Of a stretch of 64,000 nt of DNA, positions 22,684 to 40,000 are shown piece after piece (position 1 is the stretch's first letter; each line of letters opens with the position of its first letter). Below the pieces are notes generated by a model. It was given only the letters and a program-made list of their open reading frames with translations, was not told the origin of the DNA and searched no databases. This DNA comes from Thermoanaerobaculia bacterium (lineage in GTDB: Bacteria > Acidobacteriota > Thermoanaerobaculia > Multivoradales > Multivoraceae): the NCBI GenBank assembly GCA_022822365.1, contig JAJEBV010000008.1:169524-233523 (forward strand). The letters are read 5' to 3'. A program made the position numbers and the translations under genes.

Positions 22684-22799
22684 CAATCGGCCCCGAGGTC
22701 CAATCGAGTCGGCCCAATGTGCGCCGAAGACTCGCCCCCCGACGACCACCATCCTCCACGCCCCAACCCACACTAACTAGCAGCTAGAACCACCGAAGA

Positions 22800-24830: not shown

Positions 24831-24839
24831 TCTCTTCAC

Positions 24840-25349
24840 CTACTTTCGGTAGTAGGTCATTCCGGCGCTTGCGTGTGGTCCGGCCGCTAGTGTGCCGAAG
24901 CTCACCGAGCGCATGCCGGCAACGGAGGTTCTCGTTCCCGGCGACCATCCTGGCTGGGGCGAATGGGGTCCGTTGAAGCTGCAGAAGAGGCGGTACGTGG
25001 TTCCACCGGGAACTCGCTCGAACTTCGCCATGAACTGCGCCAGCGCGGCGCGGTCCGCCGTGAATTTCCGATCTCCCACCCCGGTGAAGGTGTATGACAC
25101 GGGGAATTCGAAGATCGGGCTCACCGTTCCGCTTGGTTGGTGGCATTCGAGTGCGACGCGCTCAAGCGAACCTTCTTCGATCCAGTTTGAGATGGCCGCT
25201 TGATCCCTTGGCCAGTACGCGAACAGGCGCGTGGGGTCGATTCCCAGCGTCCCCAGAATGTCGGCTATCGAGCCCATGATGACGTCCGCCAAGTGAGTAG
25301 CCGTATGGGTACGCGTGTAGGTGGTGACCGAGGTCCTGGACGACGTCAT
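24840..25349 (-). CDS. small protein (169 aa), candidate HORMA-domain partner (by size and context only)
   Basis: Internal ATG at 25349 (MTSSRTSVTTY...) overlaps the stop of the upstream gene (ATGA). Lies between the Trip13-like and CD-NTase genes. Confidence 0.45.
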   Translation of the reverse strand: MTSSRTSVTTYTRTHTATHLADVIMGSIADILGTLGIDPTRLFAYWPRDQAAISNWIEEGSLERVALECHQPSGTVSPIFEFPVSYTFTGVGDRKFTADRAALAQFMAKFERVPGGTTYRLFCSFNGPHSPQPGWSPGTRTSVAGMRSVSFGTLAAGPHASAGMTYYRK

Positions 25350-25837
25350 GACTTCATTCTCAGCCTGCGGAGGGCGTCCATGTCGATGGCTGAACGGGAA
25401 GCTCGTTCCGTCTTGGCCGTGGGTGCCGTCTTCGGCGGCGCGTCGACAGATAGGTGCGCCGAGCGCTTGGCCGCGCTGGACACACTGTTGTCGAGCGCTC
25501 CGGGCAAAGGCACATGAAGTACCCACGCGGGCGTGGCACTCCCGCCGCCGGGCACAGGGTTGAGATTCTCCTTGACGGCGAGCGCCGCATCCGCAGTGAC
25601 GACTCTAATCGTCAGATGCAGCCCGACGTCGCAAAGAACCAAGCCGTCCGACTCCAGGTGTCCGCCCGCGATGAGGGCGGGGCCCAGACCCTCTAGCGCT
25701 GTCAGCTCGCGCTCTACGCTTCCGGCCGCAACGTTGGGGCTCCGCTCAAGCGTCGTAGCGATGAGCGTCGTGACCACGTTCCACGCTTCGGCGGCGCTTC
25801 GAACGGGGGAAGCGGCGATTGTCCTTTGTCGCTCCAT
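25346..25837 (-). CDS. small protein (163 aa), candidate HORMA-domain partner (by size and context only)
   Basis: ATG at 25837 (MERQRTIAAS...) lies 1 nt after the Trip13-like stop. Its stop overlaps the next start. Confidence 0.45.
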   Translation of the reverse strand: MERQRTIAASPVRSAAEAWNVVTTLIATTLERSPNVAAGSVERELTALEGLGPALIAGGHLESDGLVLCDVGLHLTIRVVTADAALAVKENLNPVPGGGSATPAWVLHVPLPGALDNSVSSAAKRSAHLSVDAPPKTAPTAKTERASRSAIDMDALRRLRMKS

Positions 25838-25838
25838 T

Positions 25839-26759
25839 TCAGCCCTCCGAACCTCCCTGACTGATACCGCCGTCCTCCATGACCCGCGAGGCCGCCGCGA
25901 GCAGGTCGTCGATCGTCGTACTTCCCGGGTCGAGCACCGTCTCGTCCCGGCCGAGCATCGCCTCCAGAATCGTCTTCCGGACCCGCCGGCCGTCCGCTCC
26001 CGCCAAGCGTCCCGCGACCTCTTCGAGCTGCTCGTCGCAAGCAAGTTCGCCGAGACACGCGTAAGCCGGCGCCATCGACCGAAGAGCGGACCTCAGGATC
26101 GCGACGATTCCCGCAGAATCCGGCACCGGGACGTGAATTTGCACGTCCACCCGCGACAAGAAGGCCTCGTCCAGGACGCCGACGAAGTTGCTCGTTGCCA
26201 CGAAGACCAGATTGGGGAACGCCGTCGTATTCGCGTCGAGCGCCGCCAACACGGCGTCCGTCGCTCGGTGCACGTCTGCCGGATTCGCCGCCAGCGACGC
26301 CTCGCTCCTCGCGACGGCCATCGACTCGATCTCGTCAAGGAGAACGACCGTAGGCACACCGTCGTCGGCAAGGCTCGGCACGTACTCCGCGAGCAACTGC
26401 GTTACAGCGCTCTGGCTCTCCCCATGCTCGGCGCTCATGAGACCGTGGGGATTGACCTCGACCAGCCGCGCTTGACGCTTCGGGGTGATCTTCGCCAGTT
26501 CATGGGCCAGACCACGTGCCAATGTCGTCTTACCTGTTCCCGGGGGGCCGTGTAGCAGGACGAGCCCATGCAGCGCCGTCGTCTCGAAGGGCAGTTCGCG
26601 ACGTAGGCGGAGATTCAACGCCGTGGCTCGGAGCAGACGGTCCTTCACCGAAGCATCAACTACAATCGAGTCCCACAGGCCCGCGTAGGCTGGATCCGGC
26701 ATCTCGCGAACAGCGCGCACGGACTCGGCCGCTTGACTGGGTGCGTTTTCGCTTCGCAT
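25839..26759 (-). CDS. Trip13/Pch2-like AAA+ ATPase
   Basis: ATG at 26759 (MRSENAPS...). Matches Trip13 blocks: LWDSIVVDASVKDRLL, LLHGPPGTGKTTLARGLA, EVNPHGLMSAEHGESQSAV, VLLDEIESMAVAR, NLVFVATSNFVGVLDEAFLSRVD. Confidence 0.85.
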   Translation of the reverse strand: MRSENAPSQAAESVRAVREMPDPAYAGLWDSIVVDASVKDRLLRATALNLRLRRELPFETTALHGLVLLHGPPGTGKTTLARGLAHELAKITPKRQARLVEVNPHGLMSAEHGESQSAVTQLLAEYVPSLADDGVPTVVLLDEIESMAVARSEASLAANPADVHRATDAVLAALDANTTAFPNLVFVATSNFVGVLDEAFLSRVDVQIHVPVPDSAGIVAILRSALRSMAPAYACLGELACDEQLEEVAGRLAGADGRRVRKTILEAMLGRDETVLDPGSTTIDDLLAAASRVMEDGGISQGGSEG

Positions 26760-26831
26760 GACTGCAACTCTACTTCGCAACAGGCGCGACCGCAACCCTC
26801 GAATCCGGCGACTCGAACATTCCCGTGCGGC

Positions 26832-27263
26832 ATGACCATGGTCGATCCCGGTTCCCCTAAGCCAACCGCGGCCCGGCCCTCGGCGAGACCCGCTCCCAAC
26901 CGCCGACGAGATCGCCCTCAGGTGGGCAGCGTTCTCCGCCGAGCCCGCCTGCACCACGACCTCTCGCTACGCGAGGTGGAACGCCGCATCGGCCGGTCCA
27001 ACGCGTATTTGTCCCAGGTGGAGCGCGGCCTGATCAAGCAGCCCGACCCGATCGTTCTCCTGGAACTGGCCGAACTCTACGGCCTGAACTTCGAGACCCT
27101 CGCGGCCTGGGCGAACTGGGTTTCCGCCGACCCGAACCCTTCGGGCGCGCAACCGCGTGACTCAACCGCCGTTCTCGTCCGGCAGGTCATGGAACTCGAC
27201 GCCGCCGAAAGGGCGACGGTTCTCCGCTTCGTCGACTCCATCCTGCGCAAGCGGCGGACGTAG
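26832..27263 (+). CDS. XRE-family helix-turn-helix transcriptional regulator
   Basis: ATG at 26832 (MTMVDPGS...). HTH LSLREVERRIGRSNAYLSQVERG. Divergent from the Trip13-like operon with a 72-bp intergenic region. Confidence 0.7.
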   Translation: MTMVDPGSPKPTAARPSARPAPNRRRDRPQVGSVLRRARLHHDLSLREVERRIGRSNAYLSQVERGLIKQPDPIVLLELAELYGLNFETLAAWANWVSADPNPSGAQPRDSTAVLVRQVMELDAAERATVLRFVDSILRKRRT

Positions 27264-27400
27264 GCACCCCTTCCCTCATGCCTGCACGCGCCAGACCGCT
27301 CCAAGGTCTGCACTCGCAACGCTGCTAGCCGCGCGCCCTCTCCCTCTAGCTTGACCGCGGCCCCCACGCTCGCACCTGTCCAGACACGATCCCCTCCGGT

Positions 27401-28246
27401 TCAACCTCGCTCTGCGGCCTCGTACACCGGCTTCCTCAACTTGAAGAACCACTCCGGCACCATCGGGCTAAGCCGCCGATGTTCGAAGAGGCGGGCCTGC
27501 ACGAGCCGGACGTCGCAAAGTGTCTGACTACCAGACTGCGCCCCAGCCCGTGACAGGAAGCGATGCAGCTTCTCCATGCGGATCCTTGCCGCAGATTGAG
27601 CAGTAACCGCCAATACCACCCACGCGACAAGCCTGAGACACGCCGCCACCAAGAGAACCACGTCCAGCAGTGAAGCCTCTGCAAGCACCGCCCCCAGAAG
27701 GACCGTCACCACCGACGCACCTACCAACGACTTGACGACCCAGATCCACTCCCTGCGTAATCGCTCCTCCCAGCGACAGCTAGCCCTCTGGCAGTGCAAC
27801 TGCGCCGCCACCGGCTCCGCGGGAATGGCTTCCGCTCGATACCAGTCAACCAGATCCTCCGGCGAGTCCCTTCGCGCGCTCCCTTTTCTCGCCAGCTCCT
27901 TCACTCTGTCATCCGTGGGCTGCTCCACACCGCTGTGAGCCGACCAAGGTAGGTCAAGGACGAAACAGTCAAACGCCTCCTGGATCGTCGCAGCTTCCTC
28001 CTTCATCCGGTCCCCCCACCGAGCCAGAAGCGGCTGGTCCACGAACCAAAGCAAGACAACGATGACGGTCGCTGCGTGACTGTCCGACCCCGCCTCCCTG
28101 GTCAAGCCCCAGAGCGCTACAACCGCAACGGCCACCACGCCCCCGAGCCGCACGCCCTCTACCTTCTTGACCTGCCGGTACAGCCAACGCAGCGCCGCCA
28201 GCCTTTCCAGTGACCGCTGGCTGTTCTGCCGCTCCCGAATGCTCAC
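27401..28246 (-). CDS. predicted multi-pass membrane protein (candidate effector)
   Basis: 281 aa, GTG start. Hydrophobic helices (GVVAVAVVALWGL, ATVIVVLLWFV, LVGASVVTVLLGAVLAEASLLDVVLLVAACLRLVAWVVLAV). No enzymatic motif recognised. Confidence 0.5.
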   Translation of the reverse strand: MSIRERQNSQRSLERLAALRWLYRQVKKVEGVRLGGVVAVAVVALWGLTREAGSDSHAATVIVVLLWFVDQPLLARWGDRMKEEAATIQEAFDCFVLDLPWSAHSGVEQPTDDRVKELARKGSARRDSPEDLVDWYRAEAIPAEPVAAQLHCQRASCRWEERLRREWIWVVKSLVGASVVTVLLGAVLAEASLLDVVLLVAACLRLVAWVVLAVTAQSAARIRMEKLHRFLSRAGAQSGSQTLCDVRLVQARLFEHRRLSPMVPEWFFKLRKPVYEAAERG

Positions 28247-28836
28247 CCGCTTCTACCCTCCTCCATCGAATCCTACTCAGCGGGCCTATAGACGAAGTGC
28301 TTAACCGGCGTTCAACGCTCGGGATCCCCGATCTTCTCAGCCGCCGGCACCATCGCATGCTCCACGAAGGCGGTTCCGGCGTCAGAATAGGCGATCAGCA
28401 CGCCGTCCTGTACCACCATCCCCACGGTCGGCATCTGCACGAGAGCCCGCCGCCGTCAATCGGCCCCACCTCCGCCCGTGAGCTCGTCAAAGGCCTGGAG
28501 GACGCGGGCATCCTGATCACCGGCAAGTAGTTCGCTTTCCGGCGTGGGACGGCCGGCCTATGGAGCCGCCCTACGTCCTGGTGTGCCTGTAACGACCGCC
28601 GCCGCACTTGGAGGAGGCAGTGCCGCGGGAGAACGGACCGTTCACACGCGGCTTAGCTCGAACCGCTACGTGGGTACCGCCTGGGCGCTCGAGAGATCTG
28701 CTGGTCCGCGAGTGCGGCACCCGGCCCAAGCCCCGTGTTCATGCCGACTCCGCTCCGTGCGTAGCGCACCAGCGGCACGCCGACGGCCGAAGCTCGTACA
28801 CTGAGCAGCCCCTAGACTGGGCCGGCGCTTCCTCTC

Positions 28837-29349
28837 ATGCTGAAACACTCCACGACCATACGCGACGTGAGCCGTGCGCTTCCAACGCTCGTGCCCTCGG
28901 ACCCCGGTCTTGCCGTGCCTCTCTCGGCCGACCGGCTTGATGCCCACACGAAAGAGCTACGCCACCACTACGACGACCTCTTCCCGGTTATCGATCGCGC
29001 AGGCCACACGCTCGCGGGGGCGATCAAGATGCTCGACCCCGGGGAGAGCCCCGATCCCGGTGGTGAAGGCGTCGCTGCTCTCGAACAGAGCGAGGCCTAC
29101 TTCAAGCACCGTCGAGAGCAGCTCCTGCACCTGCGCAACGCCTTCGTTGAGATCGGCGCTTCGCCTTCGCACGAGATCTTCGAAGCGCTCGACCGCCTCG
29201 ACGAGCTGTACATGTGGATCGTCGTGACGATGCAGGAGGCACGCTGGGACGTCTTGATCTTCAAGGGACTCAAGGCCGGGGCCGCATCCCCAAGGGAGCG
29301 CTCCTTCACGTCCTCAGCCGCGTGGCTGGCGTCGCTTCCCGGCCGTTGA
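28837..29349 (+). CDS. hypothetical protein
   Basis: 170 aa ORF with an ATG start, non-repetitive composition and no recognised motif. Confidence 0.35.
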   Translation: MLKHSTTIRDVSRALPTLVPSDPGLAVPLSADRLDAHTKELRHHYDDLFPVIDRAGHTLAGAIKMLDPGESPDPGGEGVAALEQSEAYFKHRREQLLHLRNAFVEIGASPSHEIFEALDRLDELYMWIVVTMQEARWDVLIFKGLKAGAASPRERSFTSSAAWLASLPGR

Positions 29350-29389
29350 CCTACGCCGTCACGCAGGCAAGGGGATCGGGTCGGGCCAG

Positions 29390-29725
29390 CTACCTGATCA
29401 GCGCGCGGCGCGCGCCGAACGCCTCTTTCGCCCTTGCAGCCCGGTGTTCTTCGTACAGCGCAGGATCAGGGTCGACCTCCACCATCTCGCCGTTCTCGAC
29501 GACCAGTACCTTCGTGCCGTGCACATGCGCGTCCCAGTGCGCGCGGCGCACCGCCCGCTCCATCGCCGCGGGCGCTGCCTGCATGTCGGGATCGTCGAGC
29601 TTCGACACGGGAAGTCGTTCGGACTCGTCCGCCACCGGGGTTTCTACCTCCTCGTGAGAGTCTACGAGATCCGGGTTCACCCGGCCGGCGTTATAGTCGA
29701 GAAGCTGAGGCTGGGAGCCGGTCAT
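29390..29725 (-). CDS. hypothetical small acidic protein
   Basis: Internal ATG of the track ORF 29390..29968 gives a ~111 aa acidic product. Divergent from the multiubiquitin gene with a 55-bp gap. Confidence 0.3.
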   Translation of the reverse strand: MTGSQPQLLDYNAGRVNPDLVDSHEEVETPVADESERLPVSKLDDPDMQAAPAAMERAVRRAHWDAHVHGTKVLVVENGEMVEVDPDPALYEEHRAARAKEAFGARRALIR

Positions 29726-29780
29726 CTGACCACCGCCTGGCCTCTCGGCGAGAGGAACTGGAGGTCTCCTGAGGGGCAGC

Positions 29781-30236
29781 ATGATCCACTTCACCATCAA
29801 CGGACAGGAGTTCGAGTCTCCGCAGAAACGCGTCTCCGTCGAGTGGCTCCTGAAGTTGATCGGCTGGAGCCCGAAGGACGCCCAGCTCGTGCGTGAGGTC
29901 ACGGGCGAGACGTGGTCCGACCCGTCCGCTGAGGTCGAGTTGCGCGAGGGGGACAAGTTCGAGGCCAAGCCGCGTCGGGGCCCGCTGCCTCCGGAGTCAA
30001 AGATCCACTACAAGGTGAACGGAGAGCCGCAGGTCACAACGAAGACGCCGATGATCCTCGAGGAAATCCTGCGCCGCGCGGGCGCCGACGCCGCCATCGA
30101 CCTCAACCAACTGGGGAGCTACTACCTCGACAACGTGGGTACGGGCGCCAGGTACGAGAACCTCGACGACGAAGTGCCGATCGTCGACGGCGACGAATTC
30201 GTGGCCCTCTACGCCGGACCGACGCCCGTCGCCTGA
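29781..30236 (+). CDS. multiubiquitin-like protein (two tandem beta-grasp/Ubl repeats)
   Basis: 151 aa. Two ~70-aa repeats each start with IH(F/Y)x(I/V)NG and end with (D/E)GDxF (IHFTINGQEF...EGDKFE; IHYKVNGEPQ...DGDEFVALYAG). First gene of an E2/E1/JAB operon. Confidence 0.6.
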   Translation: MIHFTINGQEFESPQKRVSVEWLLKLIGWSPKDAQLVREVTGETWSDPSAEVELREGDKFEAKPRRGPLPPESKIHYKVNGEPQVTTKTPMILEEILRRAGADAAIDLNQLGSYYLDNVGTGARYENLDDEVPIVDGDEFVALYAGPTPVA

Positions 30237-30240
30237 CGCA

Positions 30241-30621
30241 GTGCTCGAGACCATCGCCCGAGAGTTGCGGGAACTCGATGTCGAGGCCCGCGTCGTGCAT
30301 TCGTGGAACGGAATGGGGGGCGGCGGCGTCGTTTTCCCGCTCCGTGCGCCAAGCGGCCGCTTCAAGGGGAAGACACTGCAGCTTGGCCTGAGCTTTCAGG
30401 AGGATGCCTACCCTGAGTACCCGCCGCACTTCGTCCACTTTCGGCAAGCGGAGATCGAGGGCACGCACTTCACGATGCACTCGAAGCACGAGTTCGAAGG
30501 CGCCGAATGGTGGGCCTTCAGCTTCCCTCCGAGCGACTTCTGGGACCGTCTGGCGCCATCGGAGAAGAACATGCGGACCTACGTCCGGCGCCATCTCTAT
30601 CGCGTCCTGGAGCAATTGTGA
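30241..30621 (+). CDS. E2/UEV-like protein (UBC fold without a catalytic Cys)
   Basis: 126 aa, GTG start 5 nt after the previous stop. GKTLQLGLSFQEDAYPEYPPHFVHF mirrors the E2 core (FPxDYPFKPPKVxF), but the protein contains no cysteine. Confidence 0.5.
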   Translation: MLETIARELRELDVEARVVHSWNGMGGGGVVFPLRAPSGRFKGKTLQLGLSFQEDAYPEYPPHFVHFRQAEIEGTHFTMHSKHEFEGAEWWAFSFPPSDFWDRLAPSEKNMRTYVRRHLYRVLEQL

Positions 30622-32075
30622 CCTTCGAGGCGGCGTTCGTCGAGTCCACTCACGATGCAGCTTGCCGCCACCTGCTGGCGCATCTGCGCTCGGGCAGACG
30701 GCAGGAAGATCTCTGCTTCGCGCTGTGGCGGCCAAGTACCGGCGCCAGTCGGACGACCGCCCTGATTTCGGAGCTCGTCTTGCCGGAGGAAGGCGAGCGC
30801 ACCCTGCACGGCGGCGCGAGCTTCCAGCCGAACTTCCTGTCACGCGCCCTTCGCCTCGCCTGCGACCAGAACGCAGGTCTGGCCTTCCTGCACAGCCATC
30901 CGGTACCCGGCTGGCAGGGCATGAGTAGTGCGGATGTGAAGGCCGAACGGGACCGCATCGGCGGGCCGGCCCGAGCCACTGGTCTTCCGCTCGTAGGCCT
31001 CACGCTCGGAACGGACGAATCGTGGAGCGCCCGTTTCTGGAACTGGGAAGGCGGCGAGCTCGAGCGAACGTGGTGCCCGAAGGTGAGGGTCATCGGTCGT
31101 CGCCTGCGTCTGACCTGGAACGACGAACTGGTGCCGCCGCCCCGGCGGCGAGCGGTCCTCCGGCGCACGACAGACACTTGGGGCTGCGCGCGCCAATCAG
31201 ACCTGGCTCGGCTGCGGATAGGAGTCGTGGGTCTCGGGAGCGTCGGGTGCCTCGTTGCGGAGACACTCGCCCGCATCGGCGTCGAGAACATCGTTCTCGT
31301 GGACGCGGACCAAGTGAAGCGCCACAACCTGGACCGTCTCCTGTACGCTGGCGAGGACGACATCGGCCGCCTCAAAGTCGAACTCGCAGCCGAGAATCTG
31401 CGCCGGTCGGCGACGGCCGCGAACTTCACCGTCGAGTCCCACGTCGGCTGGCTCCAGCAGAGCGACTGCTATCGCGCCGCGCTGGACTGCGACGTCCTGT
31501 TCTCCTGTGTGGACCGACCTCTTCCAAAGGACCTTGTGAACCACATCGCCTACGCCCACTGCGTCCCCGTCGTGTTCGGCGGCGTCTTCGTCGACACGAA
31601 GCGGGACAGCACACTCGGCCAAGCGACCTGGAGCGTGGTCCGTGCCGGGCCCGAGCGCCGCTGCCTGCGATGCGACGGGCAGTACACGACCTCGGACGTC
31701 GCCATGGAGCGCGACGGCTCCCTGGACGACCCGAACTACATCGCCAGACTCACCGGCGGCAGACCTACGAACCAGAACGTGTTCCCGTTCAGCGCCAACC
31801 TCGCCAGTCTCATGACGCTCGAGATGATTCGAATGGTCGTGGGCGACACATGGTGGCCCCAGAATGCCGGCAAGCTGGACTACAGCTTCGTGCCGAACGT
31901 GCTTCGCACGGAAGACAGCCGCTGCCGCGAGTACTGTGAGGTGGCGAACCGGACGGCGCTGGGAGATCACATCGCCTATCCGTTCCTCGAAGCGGCGGCG
32001 CCCTCCGCCAACCTCGGGCGGATGGCTCGACTGCGAAGCTGGCTTCGGAAACTGGTAGGCGGGAGGGCCCCATGA
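30618..32075 (+). CDS. JAB/JAMM deubiquitinase-like domain fused to an E1-like (ThiF/MoeB) adenylyltransferase
   Basis: GTG start overlapping the E2-like stop (GTGA). JAMM motif LAFLHSHPVPGWQGMSSAD (HxHx7Sx2D). E1 Rossmann IGVVGLGSVGCLVAETLARIGV...VDADQVKRHNLDRLL. Cys-rich region CLRCDG. Confidence 0.8.
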   Translation: MTFEAAFVESTHDAACRHLLAHLRSGRRQEDLCFALWRPSTGASRTTALISELVLPEEGERTLHGGASFQPNFLSRALRLACDQNAGLAFLHSHPVPGWQGMSSADVKAERDRIGGPARATGLPLVGLTLGTDESWSARFWNWEGGELERTWCPKVRVIGRRLRLTWNDELVPPPRRRAVLRRTTDTWGCARQSDLARLRIGVVGLGSVGCLVAETLARIGVENIVLVDADQVKRHNLDRLLYAGEDDIGRLKVELAAENLRRSATAANFTVESHVGWLQQSDCYRAALDCDVLFSCVDRPLPKDLVNHIAYAHCVPVVFGGVFVDTKRDSTLGQATWSVVRAGPERRCLRCDGQYTTSDVAMERDGSLDDPNYIARLTGGRPTNQNVFPFSANLASLMTLEMIRMVVGDTWWPQNAGKLDYSFVPNVLRTEDSRCREYCEVANRTALGDHIAYPFLEAAAPSANLGRMARLRSWLRKLVGGRAP

Positions 32076-33340
32076 GCGCCATCACGAGTCTCGCTCTGAC
32101 GGACGTGCGCTGCTTCGAGGGTACTCAGCGTGTCGGACTGCCCCGCATCGCGGTGGTGGTGGGAGAGAACAGCGCAGGGAAGTCGACCTTCCTGGGCTGC
32201 CTTCGCGGCATGGCCAAACTGGCGAGTCTCGACGACCTGGACGACGAGAACCACTTCGATCAGCCGCCGTTCAACATGGGGCCGTTCAGCACGATCGCCC
32301 GCTCCGGCGCGGTAACCTTCGCGCTGGAAGCGACATTCGAGGGCCACAGCTACGAACGCGTGCGCGTCGTCTACGACGAAGGTCCCGACGGCGAACCCCG
32401 CGAGCGGGAGCTGGAATTCGTGCTCAGTACGAAGGGGCCCGACGCACTTGCCTTCGGCATCACGCGGATCGACCCGTCAGACGATGAACACAGGGAGACG
32501 TGGCGAGTCGCCGGACCGGGTTTCGAGTTCGACTTCGAACAGTCGTCGGTTTCCTACCGGCAGTTCAGCACTTGGCTCTCGCGCTCCGTCCGTCGGGGCA
32601 ACCTCCCGCACGACGGCGATCCGACCTTGAGGCGAAAGCGAACCGGCGACGTGACGCCGGAAGCGGATCGGGCGTTCACCCGCTTCGTGAACTTCTTCCG
32701 GGAAAGCCCTCGCGTTCCGCCGCCCGACCAGAAGCTCCTGGTTGTCGCCAACAACCCGGTCGGTTGGCCGCGCGACCGCTCGTTCGCCACAAACCCGTTC
32801 GGCCGGGCGATGGACGAGCCGAGGCTCTCCGAGATTCGGAAACTGGGTAGTGAACTCGGCCTCTTCGGCGACTTGGAGATTCGGCGCGGACCCGCTGGCG
32901 AGTACGAGGTGTGGGCCGACGCCTCCGGCGAGAGCCGCAACCTCGTCGACGTCGGCTTCGGCATTCAGAGCGCGCTGCCAATGCTCCATGCCATCGTTTC
33001 TGCGACGAAGGGGGCCACGCTCCTCCTGCAACAGCCCGAGGCTCATCTGCACCCAAGAACGCAGGCTGCGCTGGTGCGCGTGATCGTGTCGCGCGGTAGT
33101 CGGCTCCTGGTCGAGACGCATAGCGACCACGTTCCGGACTGGTTCCGTATCGCCGCGATGTCGGGGCAGGTGGATCCGCAAGACGTGGGGATCGCCTACT
33201 TCCACCGCAGTGACAACGGCGCCTCCACGACCCTGCACGACATTCGGCTTGACGATCAAGCGAATCTGGACGATCCACCGCGCGGTTTCCGGGACTTCTT
33301 CGTCGACGAGACCGAGCGACTTCTCGGCTTCCGCCGGTAG
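32072..33340 (+). CDS. ABC-type (AAA_15/AAA_21, OLD/SMC-like) ATPase
   Basis: ATG overlapping the previous stop (ATGA). Walker A GENSAGKST, Walker B/D-loop LLLQQPEAHLHP. Confidence 0.75.
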   Translation: MSAITSLALTDVRCFEGTQRVGLPRIAVVVGENSAGKSTFLGCLRGMAKLASLDDLDDENHFDQPPFNMGPFSTIARSGAVTFALEATFEGHSYERVRVVYDEGPDGEPRERELEFVLSTKGPDALAFGITRIDPSDDEHRETWRVAGPGFEFDFEQSSVSYRQFSTWLSRSVRRGNLPHDGDPTLRRKRTGDVTPEADRAFTRFVNFFRESPRVPPPDQKLLVVANNPVGWPRDRSFATNPFGRAMDEPRLSEIRKLGSELGLFGDLEIRRGPAGEYEVWADASGESRNLVDVGFGIQSALPMLHAIVSATKGATLLLQQPEAHLHPRTQAALVRVIVSRGSRLLVETHSDHVPDWFRIAAMSGQVDPQDVGIAYFHRSDNGASTTLHDIRLDDQANLDDPPRGFRDFFVDETERLLGFRR

Positions 33341-33349
33341 GGCTGGGAC

Positions 33350-33844
33350 GTGTGTACTCGGGTAGTGCTGGACGCAAGTGCGTTCGACGTCGTCAACGAG
33401 GAATCGCCGGCGTCGGCCGGCGTGCAGCTCCGACATTGGATAGCCGAAGGGCATGGGCGGGTTGCGTACTCCACCTACGATCGTTGCGGGAAGCAACTCA
33501 AGTGGGACGACAAGGTCTGGGCACTCGTTCGCCGCTACAGCCAGAGCGGCCTGGCGAATCGAGTAGCTGACCAAGATGTTCAACGGGAAGAAGAACGGCT
33601 GCGACCCGTCGTGACACGCTCCGGGGAGAACGACAGGCAAATGCTCGCCCTCGCGGCCGCCTCTGATGCGAGGGTGATGGTCGTCAAAGATGGGAACCTG
33701 ACGAAGGACTTTGAGGACGTGGCGATCCTGCCGAAGGTGCCGGGCTATCGGCGTCGGGCCTTCCCGAAGGAGCTTCCGAGCCCGGCACGCAACGACTTCC
33801 TCCACAGGCGTCGCTGCTCACGGCGGCTGTCCTCACGTTCCTGA
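33350..33844 (+). CDS. small protein with a PIN-like signature (tentative)
   Basis: GTG start 10 nt after the ATPase stop. The N-terminal VVLDASAF and the later SGENDRQMLALAAASDARVMVVKDG resemble PIN acidic-residue blocks. Weak call. Confidence 0.35.
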   Translation: MCTRVVLDASAFDVVNEESPASAGVQLRHWIAEGHGRVAYSTYDRCGKQLKWDDKVWALVRRYSQSGLANRVADQDVQREEERLRPVVTRSGENDRQMLALAAASDARVMVVKDGNLTKDFEDVAILPKVPGYRRRAFPKELPSPARNDFLHRRRCSRRLSSRS

Positions 33845-33888
33845 GGCGACGGTGGACGGATCGACCAGCGTCCGGGAGTGCCACTACG

Positions 33889-33923
33889 CTTGAAAATCCA
33901 GCAGTCACCGCCGAGATTTCAAG
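33889..33923. promoter_or_regulatory. inverted repeat CTTGAAAATCC-N13-GAGATTTCAAG upstream of the giant helicase gene
   Basis: The half-site matches the 11-mer CTTGAAATCTC found in the 12.2-kb direct-repeat cluster. Located about 80 bp upstream of the 34004 start. Confidence 0.55.
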
Positions 33924-34003
33924 CGCGATGACCCGCGCCTCGGCGTCGCTTAGAACGCACGCCTCAAGGCTCAGAGCCCACAAGCGTTAGCCTTGCCGGC
34001 TCC

Positions 34004-37000
34004 ATGGCCCTGAACCCGGTCGTCTTCACGGAGAAGGTCCTCCAGAGCTTTCTCCGCTACCAGTTGCGGGCCTATCCGTTCGCGGATCCGCGCCTGCACG
34101 GGCAGATGCGGGAACTGCTTTCGCTCGACGAAGCGCGGCAGTCGCCGCTGCTGCAGGGACCGTTCGTCAGCCTCTCGCGGCCCTTCCGCGGCGGCGCGGC
34201 TGTGGCGGATCTGGCGGATGAGGGCCTGCTCCACCCTCACCTGGAGCAACGGATCCCGAACGACATCAAGGAGCTCTACCGGCACCAGGAGAAGGCGATC
34301 CGCGCGATCGTCGGGGGGCGCTCGACGCTCGTTTCGACCGGCACCGGCTCCGGCAAGACGGAGTGCTTCCTCTACCCGATCGTCAGTCGCTGCCTGCGGC
34401 TGCGGGACGAGGGTGCGGCGGCCGGCATCAGCGCCGTGATCGTCTATCCGATGAACGCGCTGGCCGAGGATCAGTTGATGCGGCTGCGCTCGCTGCTGGC
34501 GGGCACGGGCGTTTCGTTCGGGATGTACGTCGGCAAGACGCCGGAGAGAGAAGGCGACGTGGTCGGCGTCAGGCTTCCTCCGGGATCTTCCCAGGCGGAC
34601 TACGAGGCGCAGCTAGAAGCGACGAGGAAGGCCAAGAGCGGCGAGAGCGTGTTCCCGGCCGAGGAGGCCTGCTCGCGGGAGGCGATGCGTTCGGCCGGCG
34701 AGCAACCGCGCATCCTGCTCACGAACGTGAAGCAACTGGAACTGCTTCTCACCCGCCAGCGGGACGCCGAGCTGTTCCACGGCGCCCGGCTCGACTACCT
34801 CGTGTTCGACGAGGCTCACACGTTCACCGGAGCGATGGGCGCCGAGACCGCGTGCCTCGTCCGCCGTTTACGGGCCTTCTGCGGGCGACAGGCCGCGGAC
34901 ACGGTCTGCGTCGCCACCTCGGCGACGATCGTCGACCGCGAGCGGCCGGAGGCGGCTCGCGCCTTCGCGTCACGGTTCTTCGGCGTGCCGGAGGAGTCCG
35001 TCGAGACGGTCGCGGAGGACTACGAGGAAGAGGTCTGGAGCGACGAGAGATGGCTGCCAGCGGCAGCGCCGCACGGAGACACCGCCGAGATCCTGGCTGA
35101 CTGCGTGGCGGCGGTCGAGGATGACGTGGAAGGGCCGGGAGACGCTGTCCGCCGCTCTTACCGGGCGCTTGCCGGCCGGGATCTGGACGGTGACAGTGAG
35201 CCCTGGCCCGAAGCGCTCTACGGAGCCCTGGCGCGGAGCGAGATCGTCTATCGCCTGAACGAGGCGCTACACGAGCCGCGGCCGCTCCACGAACTGCCGC
35301 CGAAGCTCGCGGAAGCCATCGGCCGGGGGATCACTGAAGCCGAGATCCTGGCCTGGCTGACCCTGGCCGCCGCGGCTCGAAGGGATGGCCGGCCTCTACT
35401 GCGGCCGGTGGTCCACGGCTTCGTGCGCGGGATTCCCGGCGCGGTCGTCTCCTTTCCGGGCGAGACGGACCAGCCTCGGCTCTGGCTGGCCGCGGAGGAC
35501 GAGATCGAGCACGGCGGGACGGCGCCGGCCGAGGGGACCGAACCGTCAGGCGAAGCGCGGTCGGCGCGTCTGCCCGTGCTCACCTGCACGACCTGCGGCC
35601 AGCACTACTATGAGGCCCATCTCGAGGACTTCTCGTTCACCGGCAAACGCCCGGGTGGCGGCGAGCCGCATGGGGACGGCGTCGTCTGGCGAAAGCTCGA
35701 CGAGGCCCGGGAGGGCAAGCGAGTGCTCCTGGTGGATCGCCTGATCGGCGGCGACGAGCACGACGCAGAGGACGAAGGCGGCCCGGCCCAGGAACGACGC
35801 AACGGCAACAGTGAGGCCGCGAGCGTCCTCGAACGGCGAACCGCTCCGGTTCACCTCTGCCGGTACTGCGGCGCGGCGCATGAACGACCGGGCGGGAACT
35901 GCCTCGCCTGCGGCGCGCCCGGCCCGAGAATCCGCCTTCACGCCGTCCGCCAGAAGAAGGACAGGCCCGGCGTCCTGACGAGCTGCCTCTCGTGCAACGC
36001 GCTGGGCGGCCGGGGCGGAGGCGGCCACTACCGCGAACCGGCGCGGCCCGTCCGCGCCAGCAACGCCGCCGACGTGCACGTTCTGGCTCAGGACATGGTC
36101 CAACAATCGGAGCGGAGGCGGCTGCTCGTGTTCTGCGACAACCGGCAAGACGCTGCGTTCCAGGCCGGCTGGATGAAGGACCACGCCCGCCGGTTCCGGC
36201 TGCGGTCGTTGATGGCCGACGGGCTCAAGGATGGGCACAGGTCGGTGGGCGACCTGACGTGGTTCCTGGAAGACGCGCTGGAGGAGGACGAGGCGCTCTC
36301 TCGCGCGTTGATCCCGGAGGTCTGGGTCGTGGCCCGCAAGGAGGCTGTCGGCCAACGCCACCGCGAGGAACGGCGGAAGTTCCTGCGCATGCAGGTGCTG
36401 CGCGAGATCTCGGAGTCCGCCCGGCAACCCCTGGGGCTCGAACCCTGGGGCCGGATGAAGGTCGACTACGCCGGTCTGGACGCCTCGCTGCCGTGGATCC
36501 AGGATCAGGCGAACCGGCTCGGCCTGCCGCCGGAATCGATGCGCGAAGGGGTCGCCGCAGCACTCGACTACGTTAGGCGGCAGAAGGTCCTCCACGACGC
36601 GGAGTACAAGACGTTCACCAAGAACTGGCTCGCCGGCGACCTGGAGATCCAGCAGGGCTATCTCCGGCGGACTGGCGGGCCAAAGGGCGTCAAGTTGAAA
36701 CGCGGCCCCGGCGACGATCGCGGCCGCGTCCTGCAATGGTTGAGTGAGGGCGGCCAGACCACGATGAGGCAGATGGCCGTGAAGTGGGGCGCCGAGCCGG
36801 AACAGGCGGAGGAGCTGCTGCGGAGCCTGTTCGAGATGTTGGTAGAGCGCGGCCTGCTGCAATCGGTGCAACTCCTGGGCGCACACAGAAACCCGATGCC
36901 GAACGCCAGCGGCGTGTACCAGGTCGACGCCGACCGAATCGAGCTGTCGCCCCACCGCGGCGTCTACCGCTGCCGCAGTTGCCGCGCCCGCACGGTCCGC

Positions 37001-40000
37001 CGGACGCCGCACGACCGCTGCCCGGCCTGGCGGTGCAACGGCACGCTGGAGTGGCTGCGCGAAGACCCGGACGACTACGACCTGCAGCTCCTGGACGGCG
37101 GCTACTCCATGCTGCGCCCGGAGGAGCACACCGCGATGGTTCCGAACCGGGAGCGGGAACGGCTGGAGAACCTGTTCAAGAGCCAGAGCGACGCGGTGAA
37201 CTGCTTCGTCTGCACCGCCACGCTTGAGCTCGGGGTCGACATCGGCGCTCTCGACGCCGTGCTGATGCGCAACGTACCGCCCCTGCCCGCCAACTACTGG
37301 CAGCGAGCCGGCCGCGCCGGCCGACGCCATCGGATGGCCGTTGATCTGACGTACTGCCGGCCCGTGTCTCACGACCGCGCCTACTTCGCCCAGCCCGAGA
37401 AGCTGCTGGCCGGGCGGGTCGACCCGCCGGCCTTCAACCTGAGCAACGACGTGATGGTCCGCAAGCACGTCAACGCTTCCGTTCTGACCGGGTTGCAGCG
37501 GCTCAGTCGGGAGAACGGTGCCGCGCCGGGCAGACTTCCCGCGGCTGAACGGGAGGAGATCGGAGCGGCGCTCGAACGCTGCCTGCCGCGCCGCGTGTCG
37601 GCCTGGCTGTTCGAGGGCGACACCGTGCGTACCGCGCCGTTCGATTTCGGGCCCCTCGCCGAGGTGATCCGGCGGCACCGGCGTACGCTTCTCGCCGAAG
37701 CCGAAGACGCCTTCGCCCAGGGTTGGCCGGCAGCGGACGCCGAGGCGGCTACGCGCGACGTGCTGGGCCGCTGCGTCGACTCCTTCACCGCCGGCCTGAA
37801 AGAAGCCGAACGCTCTCTGCGGCGCCGGCTGGAGTGGGCGCTCGCCCAGATGGAGAGGCTGAACGCGACCCGCCGACCGCGCGGCACGCTCGACCCGGAG
37901 GACAAGGCTCTGTTCCGCCGTTGCGAACAGCTCGTAGAGCGGCTCAAGGGACTTGCGCGCACGAACCGCCGCGACGCCCAGGGGCACTACGACGCGAACA
38001 CGTTCAACGTGTTGGCGGCGCAGGGCTTTCTTCCCGGCTACGGGCTCGAGACCGGGTCCGTCCAGGCGATCGCGGAAGTGCCGGTCTGGCACTCCGGGGC
38101 GCTCGCCTTCAACCTGCCCCGGCCGACCGGCATCGCGCTGCGCGAGTACGTCCCGGGCAACCTGATCTACGCCAACGGGCACCGTTTCGTGGCCAGGAGG
38201 TTCCTGCGCGGTACAGGCGAAGACCGGGAGGAGATGCCCGCGTTCGAGGTCTCGACCGAGCACCAGGCGGTGCGGCAGTGCGACGCCGGCGCTCCGGCAT
38301 CGACGATCGGCGGCGGAACGCTCAGCACGCTCGCGGTCTGCGACGTGGACCTGGCCCATCGGTCCCAGATCTCGGACGACGAGGACTACCGCTTTCAGAT
38401 GGCGGTTGCCGTCCACGGCGTCGAACGCGACGGGCACCGCGGCGGCCGCGCCTTCCAATGGGGCGAGCAGGATGCGTTGCTACGTCACGGCGTCGAACTG
38501 CGACTGGTCAATGTGGGTTCGTCGTCCGCGATCGGCGACGGTTCCGGGCTCGGCTACCCGGTATGTACGGTCTGCGGCCAGAGTGTCTCGCCGCTGTCCT
38601 CCGAGCGCCAGCAGACCGAGTTCACCAAGAGCCACCTGGAGCGGTGCGGGCGCCCGGTGGATCGGATCGGCTTCCACGCTGACGTCACTGCCGATGTCCT
38701 CTCCCTGCCGAGCCTGCCGGAGCCAGCGACCGCCTACAGCGTGCTGGAGGCACTGCGGTTCGGTGCCGCCGGGGTGCTGGACATGCACCTGGACGATTTA
38801 CAGGTCCTGGTCGTGGGCCAGGTCGACCGTCCCGAAGTAAACGCGCTGCTGTGGGACCCGATGCCCGGCGGTTCGGGCCTGCTCGATCAACTCGTCGAGC
38901 GCTTCGACGAAGTCGCCGAGGCCGCGGAAGCCACTGTCGGCGGTTGCGCGTCCGGCTGCGACCACTCGTGCATCGACTGCCTCCAGACCTTCCGAAACGG
39001 CTACTACCACAGCCATCTCAGCCGAAAGACAGCGCTGGAGTGCCTGCGCCAATGGGGGCGCGAACTGGCGCTTTCGCACCCCATTCCCGCTGCCACGCCA
39101 GCCGGTGGCGAGCCCACCGCGCAGCCCGTGAACGAGGCCGAACGCCGCCTCAGGCACCTGCTGACAGCAGCGGGCTTCGCCGAAGGCGTGCGGGGAGAAC
39201 AGATCAACCTCGGCCCGGGCCTGGGCACGACGACGCCCGACGTCATCTACCCGGGCCATGGCGGCATGCCCGATGTCTGCGTCTACCTCGACGGCCTGAG
39301 CGAGCACCTGCACGGGAATCCCCGGACCGCCGAGCGGGACCGGGAGATCCGGTACTGGTTGCGACAGCAGGGCTACGAGGTGGTCGAGATCACCGTGACG
39401 GACCTTGATGACGCCGGAGCGATGGCACGCCACTTCGTGCGGCTCGCGATGTACCTGGGCGCCGAGGAGGTGCGGAAGGCTGTCAGCGTCGGCGGTGCGT
39501 GGTTTGAAGAGGCGGCACCGGCAGGGCCAGCCGCTGCGGCTCCGCCGCCGGAGGAAACTCAGCCAAGCCGGGCCGCCGTACTCCGATTCGTCGAGCCGAC
39601 CCCGGAGAACCGCTACCGAAGCTGCGTGCCGTTTCTGGAAGACCTCGAAGCCGCAGCGGGCAACTTCGGCGACCCTCACGGCGCCTTAGGCGAGATTGGG
39701 GATTCCGGAACCCCTTGGATCGAGGTCGACTTCGGGCGCCAGCCAACGCCCGACATGTTCGCGGCCAGAGTGGCTGGAAGGTCGATGGAGCCACGTATCC
39801 CAGACGGTTCCGTCTGCCTGTTCCGCAGAGGCGTCGCCGGGAGCCGAACTGGCCGCATCGTGTTGGCCCGGCTACGGGACGCCGTCGACCCGGAAACCGG
39901 CGAGCGCTTCACCGTGAAGCGCTATCGAAGCGAGAAGCGGACGGCAGCCGATGGGCCTTGGCGCCATGTCCGGATCACGTTAGAACCGCTGAACCCCGAG

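What the first reader, a model, noticed from the sequence alone, without database searches (positions are those of the whole stretch)
32072..33844. An ABC-type ATPase and a PIN-like protein are translationally coupled to the Ubl-E2-E1 operon
The ATPase ATG overlaps the JAB-E1 stop (ATGA), and the 164-aa downstream ORF starts 10 nt after the ATPase stop. Together they form a five-gene unit. AAA_15/21 ABC ATPases are effector or sensor components in several defence systems (PARIS AriA, Gabija-like, OLD). Here such an ATPase, with a small putative PIN nuclease, is wired to a ubiquitin-like conjugation cascade, an arrangement I cannot match to a described system. It could be the effector arm regulated by Ubl conjugation.
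Basis: inference. Interest (0 to 1): 0.7.

Follow-up and report, generated by a model that had tools for sequence, protein, structure and literature searches.

The report
Ubiquitin-like operon wired to ATPase–PIN nuclease
A five-gene bacterial cassette joins a cysteine-free ubiquitin-like tagging machine to an ATPase and a PIN nuclease; the combination is conserved across at least five phyla, was not found in the literature searched, and may finally give this tagging pathway an identifiable output.

Summary
ATPase 32072-33340 overlaps the JAB-E1 stop (ATGA). The 164-aa ORF starts at GTG 33350, 9 nt after the ATPase stop.

The three upstream genes form a Bub/6E.1-like conjugation module. They encode a two-domain Ubl ending in TPVA, a Cys-free E2-like protein and a JAB-E1 whose best solved relative is Citrobacter BubCD. 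The BubE (DUF6527) protease is absent.

All five genes recur in the same order, with conserved tight junctions, in about 20 loci from at least five phyla. Flanks are unrelated, and pairwise divergences of four of the genes (Ubl not tested) correlate at r 0.92-0.97.

ATPase+PIN also exists widely as a free two-gene module. More distant JAB-E1 operons carry other genes in that 3' position.

My best reading is a single defence cassette with ATPase-PIN as its effector arm. That function is inferred, not shown. I found no description of this combination.

The parts
29781..30236 (+). Ubiquitin-like protein, 151 aa, two beta-grasp repeats, ending in the invariant motif G-x-TPVA-stop
   Evidence: GC3 frame. 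Weak Pfam Multi_ubiq hit, E 0.006, below the cut-off. Orthologues sit in the same position in 5-gene loci. The C-terminus TPVA is invariant. Three loci carry a 5-aa tail and L020 is a Ubl-E2 fusion.
30241..30621 (+). E2-like protein, 126 aa, with no cysteine; invariant YPxYPPHF, Ser94 and PPSDFWD
   Evidence: GC3 frame. Alignment A2. Weak profile match to Rad6/UBC2 around YP..PP, E 0.4. Family members weakly hit Pfam Prok-E2_E and occur as Ubl-E2 fusions. The class was described by Iyer 2006 as an inactive E2/RWD-like domain.
30618..32075 (+). JAB/JAMM peptidase fused to an E1 (ThiF) adenylating domain, 485 aa; start GTG overlaps the E2 stop
   Evidence: Pfam ThiF E 2e-32. JAMM residues E30, H92, H94, S103 and D106 are invariant. 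Best solved relative is Citrobacter BubCD: E 4.8e-16 with the single sequence, 2.2e-22 with the profile, spanning both domains.
32072..33340 (+). ABC-type ATPase, 422 aa (AAA_15/AAA_21; NsnB-like); Walker A GENSAGKST; atypical Walker B LLLQQPE; GxG signature; ETHSDH H-loop
   Evidence: Pfam. PADLOC NsnB E 4.7e-39. Profile hits to PtuA, OLD and AriA. AF2 pLDDT 89. Foldseek top hits are SMC/Rad50 heads and PtuA. Motif table.
33350..33844 (+). PIN-domain protein, 164 aa; D8, D95, D114 and D120 present; Gln49 where the family has Glu, with Asp44 co-varying

Best explanation
Genes 29781-33844 form one self-contained, horizontally mobile five-gene cassette in a defence island.

The first three genes are a Bub-type (class 6E.1-like) ubiquitin-like conjugation machine:
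- a two-domain Ubl that is made already mature, ending in Ala;
- a cysteine-free E2-like protein;
- a JAB-E1 fusion homologous to BubCD.
The usual fourth gene, the BubE/DUF6527 protease, is absent.

The last two genes are an NsnB-like ABC ATPase and a PIN nuclease. This pair also exists on its own in many genomes. By analogy with Menshen NsnB-NsnC, PARIS AriA-AriB and Septu PtuA-PtuB, it most likely works as an ATPase-gated toxic nuclease.

Proposed mechanism (inferred):
1. The ATPase oligomer holds the PIN nuclease in check.
2. Ubl conjugation by E1 and E2, reversed by the JAB domain, couples infection sensing to release or activation of the nuclease. The target could be the ATPase/PIN complex or a phage protein that the ATPase recognises.
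3. The nuclease then cleaves RNA and aborts infection.

Shown: gene content, folds, conserved order, tight junctions and co-evolution.
Inferred: defence function, effector role, direction of control and RNA as substrate.
For: 1. Conserved unit.
- An ATPase-seeded scan of GTDB genomes found the order Ubl-E2-JAB/E1-ATPase-PIN in L001, L002, L004-L012 and L020. L014 (no Ubl hit) and L018 (split ATPase, no PIN hit) carry the cassette in part.
- These records are titled Acidobacteriota classes, Gemmatimonadota, Alpha- and Gammaproteobacteria, Binatia and Latescibacterota.
- An independent E1-seeded metagenome scan found the full five-gene order in L081, L082 and L084-L087; L083 runs off the contig end within the ATPase.
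- A protein look-up found it again in L168.

2. Only these five genes are shared. Flanks differ between loci.

3. Junctions are conserved.

4. Pairwise identity matrices of E2, E1, ATPase and PIN correlate at r 0.92-0.97 (Mantel 0 of 2000 permutations). Ubl-linked ATPases form one clade in an NJ tree. This points to a single capture followed by transfer as a block.

5. The ATPase-PIN pair is an autonomous module. 49 of 66 E1-less ATPase loci have the PIN gene immediately downstream and share no other neighbour.

6. Identities.
- JAB-E1 is closest to BubCD.
- The E2 family weakly hits Prok-E2_E.
- The ATPase hits NsnB, PtuA, OLD and AriA.
- The small protein has a PIN fold.

7. Precedent. NsnB is predicted to clamp the PIN-like domain of NsnC through its C-terminal tail (PMC12065111).

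8. In sister JAB-E1 operons the 3' position holds other effector-like genes: a PycTM protein in L124, a 3-TM protein in L097/L098 and an NTase-like protein in L102.

9. Defence-island context. A type III CBASS lies upstream, and a DruE-like helicase, an Eco57I-like enzyme and Fic are nearby.
Against: - No experiment or interaction prediction links the Ubl module to the ATPase or PIN.
- Co-transcription and co-inheritance are also what two independent systems fused into one mobile unit would show.
- Canonical Bub operons have not been shown to protect against phage.
- The window's own PIN copy has Gln49 instead of the catalytic Glu, so its activity is not assured.
- The ATPase Walker B is QQ rather than DE in the whole family, so ATP hydrolysis may be weak or absent.
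- The survey of the 3' slot in sister clades was partial. Many of those loci show no convincing downstream gene.
- Three ATPases inside the Ubl-linked clade (L003, L013, L015) lack an adjacent E1.
Confidence: 0.5

Rival explanations
1. Two independent systems are fused into one transcription unit: a BubE-less Bub-like conjugation system and a stand-alone ATPase-PIN system (defence or toxin-antitoxin-like). They travel together but do not talk to each other. The ATPase-PIN pair may simply stabilise the cassette or add a second layer of defence.
For: ATPase-PIN is clearly autonomous elsewhere: 49 of 66 loci have no conserved partner. JAB-E1 operons at 44-53% identity exist without it. Defence systems often cluster and co-transfer, and this window is a defence island.
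Against: The stop/start overlap between E1 and ATPase is kept through deep divergence, down to about 51% E1 identity and 35% ATPase identity between cassette copies. No close E1 homologue (above about 55% identity) was found without the pair. Ubl-linked ATPases form a single clade. The divergences of E2, E1, ATPase and PIN are tightly correlated across hosts of different phyla.
Confidence: 0.22
2. The polarity is reversed. The ATPase-PIN pair is the sensor or regulator and Ubl conjugation is the output, as in Bil, where the Ubl is attached to a phage structural protein. The ATPase would recognise a phage component and recruit or license E2 and Ubl. The PIN protein could act as an RNA-binding or adaptor subunit rather than a killer nuclease.
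For: Bil systems defend by conjugating a Ubl to phage tail proteins, as cited. ABC ATPases of PARIS and Septu are sensors. The window PIN has Gln at the catalytic Glu position. In Menshen the PIN-like domain is catalytically inactive and is proposed to bind RNA.
Against: Across the family the acidic residues D8, D95, D114 and D120 are invariant. E49 is invariant in 78 of 78 distant members. Where it is Gln, Asp44 appears in 27 of 28 cases. This pattern suggests selection to keep an active site, not decay.
Confidence: 0.15
3. The cassette is not antiviral. It is a stress-response or RNA quality-control pathway in which Ubl tagging and an RNase act on host substrates.
Against: Distribution is patchy and horizontally transferred, with unrelated flanks. 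The cassette sits between CBASS and a DruE-like gene here, and AIPR and Eco57I-like genes are nearby in L168. The closest ATPase relatives are all defence-system ATPases.
Confidence: 0.08

Closest known systems
Type I Bub operon (class 6E.1 / DUF6527; Ye et al. 2024, bioRxiv 10.1101/2024.11.21.623953; Iyer et al. 2006, Table 1 row 6e)
   Same: A multi-beta-grasp Ubl, a cysteine-free E2-like protein and a JAB-E1 fusion occur in the same order. The JAB-E1 is the best PDB match to Citrobacter BubCD across both domains. The E2 family weakly hits Prok-E2_E. Ubl-E2 fusions occur in relatives (L020; P0242-P0260). A stand-alone E2 between Ubl and JAB-E1 was already noted in 2006.
   Different: No BubE/DUF6527 gene is present. 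None of the five products hits it, and the C-x3-C...H-x2-C signature is absent from all 18 five-gene loci searched. An ATPase and a PIN protein occupy the 3' end instead. Ubl and E2 are separate genes in the window. The Ubl ends in Ala, not Gly. The E2 is too diverged to hit BubB by HMMER. JAB-E1 is only remotely similar to BubCD.
Menshen (NsnABC; Li et al. 2025, PMC12065111)
   Same: The ATPase's best defence-library hit is NsnB (E 4.7e-39), and the match runs to the C-terminal end of the profile. It shares the GxG motif in place of SGG and a non-canonical Walker B. The next gene encodes a PIN-fold protein, as the N-terminal domain of NsnC is.
   Different: There is no NsnA (ParB/DUF262) gene in any locus. 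The PIN protein is a stand-alone domain that keeps its catalytic acids. NsnC is instead an inactive PIN fused to a C-terminal nuclease. A Ubl conjugation module sits where NsnA would be.
ABC-ATPase plus nuclease defence pairs: PARIS (AriA-AriB), Septu and retron Ec78 (PtuA-PtuB), Gabija (GajA), OLD
   Same: An ABC ATPase of the OLD-ABC/PtuA type is immediately followed by a small nuclease. There are sequence and fold hits to PtuA, OLD and AriA.
   Different: The nuclease is PIN rather than Toprim or HNH. The ATPase has a QQ Walker B and a beta-rich insert instead of a coiled coil. The pair is embedded in a Ubl operon.
Type II CBASS Cap2/Cap3 (an E1-E2 and a JAB controlling an effector pathway)
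   Same: It is an operon in which E1/E2-type conjugation and a JAB peptidase are hard-wired to a separate killing module. The E1 domain hits PADLOC E1-E2 (Cap2) profiles.
   Different: CBASS has no free Ubl; the CD-NTase itself is conjugated. Cap2 uses catalytic cysteines. The effector is activated by a nucleotide signal. No CD-NTase belongs to this cassette. The CBASS next door is type III and on the other strand.
VapC-type PIN toxins
   Different: There is no VapB-type antitoxin gene; the partner is an ABC ATPase. The protein has extra conserved features: an N-terminal Met-Cys and a C-terminal R..FL..R.C tail. It is not detected by Pfam PIN on its own sequence.

Membership tests
Type I Bub / 6E.1 operon | JAB/JAMM peptidase fused N-terminally to an E1 adenylating domain, homologous to BubCD | tested here: met
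   The JAMM motif E30/H92/H94/S103/D106 and the ThiF domain are invariant. The best PDB hit is BubCD, E 4.8e-16 (single sequence) and 2.2e-22 (profile), covering both domains.
Type I Bub / 6E.1 operon | E2-like protein without a catalytic Cys (Ser/His/Asp active site), of the Prok-E2_E type | tested here: inconclusive
   The 126-aa protein has no Cys at all. Ser94, His63/His118 and Asp99/Asp102 are invariant, and His80-Ser81 are near-invariant. Only weak links exist: Rad6 at E 0.4, and relatives hitting Prok-E2_E at E 0.002-0.08, below the cut-off. There was no HMMER hit to BubB. The fold was not modelled.
Type I Bub / 6E.1 operon | E1 lacking a crossover-loop catalytic Cys and using a conserved Tyr | tested here: inconclusive
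   Between the CxxC (C349/C352) and the following conserved block there is no Cys. Y356, S359, S368 and Y374 are invariant. The HMMER alignment to BubCD stops before Y370, so equivalence could not be established.
Type I Bub / 6E.1 operon | [quoted passage not shown] | tested here: not met
   In the window the Ubl is a separate gene ending ...TPVA-stop (Ala), 4 nt before the E2 gene. The fusion exists only in L020 and some remote relatives. The Multi_ubiq hit is weak (E 0.006).
Type I Bub / 6E.1 operon | BubE (DUF6527) serine protease gene in the operon | tested here: not met
   No Pfam hit to DUF6527 was found for any cassette product or neighbour scanned. The metal-binding signature C-x3-C-x35-38-H-x2-C of Iyer 2006 is absent from the window and from all 17 other five-gene loci searched.
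Menshen (NsnABC) | NsnA: ParB/DUF262 plus ParBDB sensor gene upstream of the ATPase | tested here: not met
   Only the five cassette genes are conserved around Ubl-linked ATPases. No conserved third gene accompanies the stand-alone ATPase-PIN pairs.
Menshen (NsnABC) | NsnB: AAA_15-type ABC ATPase with a C-terminal helical tail (DUF3696) | tested here: inconclusive
   PADLOC NsnB E 4.7e-39, with the best stretch covering residues 285-418 against profile positions 208-343 of 345. The AF2 model ends in a helix at 406-417. Pfam DUF3696 itself was not detected at E up to 0.01.
Menshen (NsnABC) | NsnC: N-terminal inactive PIN plus a C-terminal nuclease or toxin domain | tested here: not met
   p164 is a single PIN domain with a short tail. 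It retains the acidic residues. It gave no PADLOC NsnC hit at E up to 1.
PIN-domain nucleases (VapC-like) | PIN alpha/beta/alpha fold | tested here: met
PIN-domain nucleases (VapC-like) | Four conserved acidic active-site residues (D-E-D-D) | tested here: inconclusive
   D8, D95 and D114 (plus D120) are invariant in 121 of 121 sequences. The Glu (position 49) is invariant in distant members, but it is Gln in the window and in 28 of 43 close relatives, where Asp44 co-occurs in 27 of 28. Spatial clustering could not be checked because no coordinates were available.
PIN-domain nucleases (VapC-like) | Nuclease activity | not testable with these tools
   This needs biochemistry.

The most novel reading that the evidence does not exclude
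This is a previously undescribed class of bacterial ubiquitin-like system. In it a cysteine-free, oxyester-type Bub-like E1/E2/Ubl cascade switches an ABC-ATPase-gated PIN RNase on or off. That would make it the first Bub-type pathway with an identifiable effector and probably an identifiable conjugation target (the ATPase-PIN complex or its phage ligand). It uses a Ubl whose reactive C-terminus is alanine.
Probability: 0.35. Interest if true: 0.8.

Novelty: new variant of a known kind. Interest (0 to 1): 0.66.

Why it matters
Bub/6E operons are biochemically proven conjugation pathways, but their targets and biological role are still unknown. As of 2026 no phage protection had been demonstrated for them.

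The published catalogue was seeded on DUF6527, so BubE-less relatives such as this one were not collected.

A conserved variant in which the conjugation genes are welded to a recognisable nuclease module offers a concrete read-out (toxicity, RNA cleavage). It also offers obvious candidate substrates for conjugation. This makes the question of what bacterial Ubl tagging does in this family directly testable.

The work also defines a large free-standing ATPase-PIN two-gene family: 2874 PIN-side hits, with no match at E up to 0.01 to any PADLOC 2.0 model for the eight full-length members tested. This family may be a defence system in its own right.

Tried and rejected
- DUF6527/BubE in or near the cassette: no Pfam hits and no signature motif.
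- Menshen membership: no NsnA, and the PIN protein is not NsnC-like.
There is no Toprim signal. 13 of 61 relatives hit DUF4411 only weakly, against 47 of 61 for PIN.
- The HD_4 hit of p164 (E 0.057) was dismissed as noise.
- Read-through ATPase-PIN fusion, suggested by the shared frame and single TAG: rejected, because spacer lengths in other loci break the frame.
- Direct Pfam, NCBIfam and PADLOC searches of p164 and the E2 found nothing.
- PDB sequence searches with the E2 sequence or profile, and with the PIN profile, gave no useful hit.
- A promoter and terminator scan and a repeat search of 28200-34200 gave nothing above shuffled expectation and no internal plus-strand terminator.
- Viral contigs hold no copy of the cassette.
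- p170 (28837-29349) as a sixth gene: it is shared only with the closest relatives L081 and L001, and in L001 it lies 5.7 kb away.
- Literature searches for a described Ubl-ATPase-PIN system found none.
- A structure prediction for the E2 was not attempted.
Full report
**1. What is in the sequence**

The window is high-GC (about 65-70%). A GC3 frame plot and translations resolve a compact plus-strand operon:
- Ubl, 29781-30236 (151 aa).
- E2-like, 30241-30621 (126 aa, GTG start, 4 nt after the Ubl stop).
- JAB-E1, 30618-32075 (485 aa). Its real start is GTG 30618, overlapping the E2 stop as GTGA, not the upstream ATG 30507.
- ATPase, 32072-33340 (422 aa, ATG overlapping the E1 stop as ATGA).
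- A 164-aa ORF, 33350-33844 (GTG start, 9 nt after the ATPase TAG).

The two last ORFs share a frame and are separated by one stop codon. In relatives the spacer is 8-19 nt and frequently out of frame, so read-through fusion is not a conserved feature.

**2. The ATPase**

- Pfam gives AAA_21 (2.8e-16) and AAA_15 (3.6e-11).
- In PADLOC the best hit by far is Menshen NsnB (4.7e-39). It is followed by the candidate systems PDC-M55A and HEC-03B, then AriA and GajA.
- A family profile hits PtuA, an OLD-family enzyme, retron ATPases and AriA among solved structures.
- An AF2 model (pLDDT 89.1) matches SMC and Rad50 heads and PtuA of Septu and retron Ec78 by Foldseek.
- Walker A (GENSAGKST), a GxG motif in place of the SGG signature, and the ETHSDH H-loop are conserved.
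- Walker B reads LLLQQPE. Gln-Gln stands where ABC ATPases have Asp-Glu, throughout the family.
- Li et al. describe similar departures in NsnB: EN for DE and GxG for SGG (PMC12065111).
- Whether the enzyme hydrolyses ATP or only binds it is open.

**3. The 164-aa protein is a PIN domain**

- Its own sequence hits nothing in Pfam, NCBIfam or PADLOC.
- It has 42 close homologues.
- A profile including diverged locus-derived copies retrieves 2874 proteins. Many carry a precomputed PF01850 hit or the NCBI name "PIN domain-containing protein".
- 47 of 61 sampled members hit Pfam PIN, with best E 9.8e-9.
- The AF2 model is confident (pLDDT 90.9, pTM 0.86).
- D8, D95, D114 and D120 are invariant in 121 of 121 sequences.
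- The classical Glu (position 49) is invariant in distant members. It is Gln in the window and in 28 of 43 close relatives.
- Gln49 co-occurs with Asp44 (27 of 28) and Glu49 with Gly44 (14 of 15).
- I read this covariation as relocation of the acid rather than decay. That is an inference.
- An N-terminal Met-Cys and a C-terminal R..FL..R.C tail are also conserved.

**4. The upstream three genes are Bub/6E.1-like**

- The JAB-E1 fusion has invariant JAMM residues and a complete ThiF domain with CxxC...CxxxC.
- Its best solved relative is Citrobacter BubCD, across both domains (E 4.8e-16 and 2.2e-22).
- The E2-like protein has no cysteine. It has invariant YPxYPPHF, Ser94 and PPSDFWD.
- It matches Rad6 only weakly.
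- Its family is small: 50 clusters at 50% identity among 1.8 billion proteins. It includes C-terminal fusions to Ubl domains, and some members weakly hit Prok-E2_E and Multi_ubiq.
- This architecture is row 6e of Iyer et al. 2006: polyUbl, inactive E2/RWD-like domain and JAB-E1, plus a metal-binding protein Y. That paper also notes a stand-alone E2 variant (PMC1779556).
- Ye et al. renamed the class Type I Bub and showed that it conjugates through Tyr and Ser oxyesters. Protein Y (DUF6527, BubE) is a serine protease.
- Here BubE is missing. There is no Pfam hit and no C-x3-C...H-x2-C signature in the window or in 17 other five-gene loci.
- The Ubl ends in an invariant ...G-x-TPVA. In most loci the stop codon follows the Ala directly. 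Three loci have 5-aa tails, and L020 has a Ubl-E2 fusion. The reactive C-terminus thus appears to be Ala rather than Gly.

**5. Is the five-gene unit real?**

Forward test:
- A scan of one genome per GTDB species with the ATPase profile gave 80 loci.
- The full order Ubl-E2-JAB/E1-ATPase-PIN is seen in L001, L002, L004-L012 and L020. L014 lacks a detectable Ubl hit. L018 has a split ATPase and no PIN hit.
- The record titles name Thermoanaerobaculia, Bryobacterales, Vicinamibacterales, Ca. Marinacidobacterales, Ca. Palauibacter, Paracoccaceae, Pseudomonadales, Gammaproteobacteria, Binatia and Latescibacterota.
- L003, L013 and L015 are the exceptions among the closer ATPases. They have no adjacent E1.

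Reverse test:
- A metagenome scan with the JAB-E1 profile gave 80 loci.
- Those at 58-75% identity (L081-L087) carry the ATPase. All but the contig-truncated L083 also carry the PIN gene.
- Those at 44-53% identity (L088-L160) do not.

Further support:
- A protein look-up added L168.
- Around the cassette only the five genes are shared.
- Junctions are conserved.
- Pairwise identity matrices of E2, E1, ATPase and PIN correlate at r 0.92-0.97, Mantel 0 of 2000.
- In an NJ tree the Ubl-linked ATPases form one clade. L003, L013 and L015 are nested within it, which I read as secondary loss or rearrangement.

The cassette therefore arose once and moves as a block.

**6. The ATPase-PIN pair is also autonomous**

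- Of 66 ATPase loci without an E1, 49 have a PIN homologue of about 150 aa starting within a few nt of the ATPase stop. No other neighbour is conserved.
- In particular there is no ParB/DUF262 gene, so these are not Menshen.
- PADLOC 2.0 has no model matching the PIN partner. The only trace is a faint HEC-03A hit, E 0.01, for one partial copy.

**7. What sits 3' of JAB-E1 in sister operons**

The answer is heterogeneous:
- a PycTM protein (L124);
- a 3-TM protein (L097/L098);
- an NTase-like protein (L102);
- a SEC-C protein (L105);
- Beta_protein (L144);
- often nothing convincing.

HTH and HTH+M78 (CapH/CapP-like) regulators occur nearby. The DUF6527 signature is absent from 68 of 73 of these loci. 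This partial survey is compatible with a variable effector slot but does not prove it.

**8. Context**

The cassette lies in a defence island:
- On the minus strand upstream is a type III CBASS: SMODS 23973-24839, HORMA 24840-25526, a Trip13-like AAA 25839-26957 and the S_4TM effector 27401-28246.
- Further upstream are an SNF2 helicase, a 2019-aa Eco57I-like protein and DUF3644.
- Downstream is a 2037-aa DruE-like helicase with a C-terminal S24 peptidase (34004-40117).
- Beyond that is a Fic protein.

No viral contig carries the cassette.

**9. Mechanism**

Shown: gene identities, folds, conserved order and junctions, co-evolution and island context.

Inferred by analogy: the ATPase oligomer clamps or gates the PIN nuclease. 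The analogues are Menshen (NsnB is predicted to clamp the PIN-like domain of NsnC), PARIS and Septu.

Because the pair works alone elsewhere, the ATPase probably has its own ligand sensing. In this clade the Bub-like machine has lost BubE. The JAB domain is intact and, since the Ubl is made mature, is free to act as a deconjugase. The ATPase-PIN pair has been gained.

The most economical reading is that Ubl conjugation and JAB deconjugation set the threshold for, or trigger, nuclease release. The target could be the ATPase/PIN complex or the ligand it recognises.

I give the integrated-cassette reading with ATPase-PIN as the effector arm about 0.5. The rivals are:
- two independent co-travelling systems, 0.22;
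- reversed polarity, with ATPase-PIN as sensor and Ubl tagging as output, 0.15;
- a non-antiviral stress pathway, 0.08.

**10. Novelty**

- Full-text searches found no description of a Ubl/E1/E2/JAB operon joined to an ABC ATPase and a PIN protein.
- The Bub papers do not mention an ATPase.
- The Menshen paper does not mention ubiquitin.
- The Bub catalogue was seeded on DUF6527, which explains the omission.

All modules are known kinds, so I rate this a new variant of a known kind. Interest is fairly high because it gives a handle on the unknown function of Bub-type pathways.

Noticed in passing
window 23973-28246 (minus strand): A complete-looking type III CBASS lies directly upstream: SMODS CD-NTase (23973-24839), bacterial HORMA (24840-25526), a Trip13-like AAA ATPase (25839-26957) and an S_4TM effector (27401-28246).
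   Followed up: partly
window 34004-40117; also L001 12095-18727, L081 9349-end, L168 7823-end, L020 1-2484 (minus strand): A 2037-aa DruE-like helicase (PADLOC DruE3, 1.4e-112) carries an MrfA Zn-binding domain and a C-terminal S24 (LexA-like) peptidase. No DruH was seen. It follows the cassette in the four closest relatives (46-390 nt downstream). It also lies within 8 kb, in the opposite orientation, in the much more distant L020. Possible linkage to the cassette was not resolved.
   Followed up: partly
window 30225-30236 and orthologues: The Ubl C-terminus is an invariant G-x-TPVA, and the stop codon follows the Ala directly in most loci. The residue to be adenylated would therefore be Ala, not the Gly reported for BubA. 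L005, L006 and L011 carry 5-residue tails, and L020 is a Ubl-E2 fusion that would need JAB processing.
   Followed up: partly
window 33479-33496 (PIN residues 44-49): There is covariation in the PIN active-site region. Gln49 pairs with Asp44 (27 of 28) and Glu49 with Gly44 (14 of 15) among the 43 closest relatives. Glu49 is invariant in 78 distant members. This suggests a relocated catalytic acid.
   Followed up: partly
window 33026-33040 (ATPase residues 319-323) and all 80+ family members: The Walker B motif is LLQQPE, with Gln-Gln instead of Asp-Glu, in the whole ATPase family, both stand-alone and Ubl-linked. This raises the question of whether these proteins hydrolyse ATP at all.
   Followed up: partly
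window about 29390-29600 (minus strand), between p170 and the Ubl gene: A small minus-strand ORF (...MQAAPAAMERAVRRAHWDAHVHGTKVLVVENGEMVEVDPDPALYEE...) is conserved at 85% amino-acid identity with L081 and has no stops. The overlapping plus-strand frame has stops in L081. It has no Pfam hit. It could be a divergently transcribed small regulator.
   Followed up: partly
window 28837-29349: A 170-aa ORF of unknown function (no family hit) is shared only with L081 (64%) and L001 (46%, 5.7 kb from the cassette). It is not part of the conserved unit.
   Followed up: partly
L072 4853-11688: Three ATPase copies lie in tandem in one Rhodothermales MAG; the second and third are each followed by a PIN homologue.
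   Followed up: no
L001-L080 record titles; L081-L095 contig names: Both the cassette and the free ATPase-PIN module come overwhelmingly from MAGs of lineages that I know as marine-sponge symbionts: Poribacteria, Entotheonella, Ca. Palauibacter, Latescibacterota, Binatia, Dehalococcoidia and Caldilineaceae. The ecological enrichment was not tested.
   Followed up: no
L124 7457-8074; L097/L098 6480-6895; L102 2923-3522; L144 7581-8645: Sister JAB-E1 operons (44-50% identity) carry different genes just 3' of E1: a PycTM-domain membrane protein, a 3-TM protein, an NTase-like protein and a Beta_protein. HTH and HTH+Peptidase_M78 (CapH/CapP-like) regulators are nearby in several.
   Followed up: partly
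window 13946-23846 and 41719-45368: Other island content: an SNF2-family helicase (13946-17347), which overlaps the listed start of a 2019-aa Eco57I-like methylase/restriction protein (16624-22683); DUF3644 (22800-23846); a large sulfatase (41719-44382); and a Fic/DOC protein (44379-45368, minus strand).
   Followed up: no
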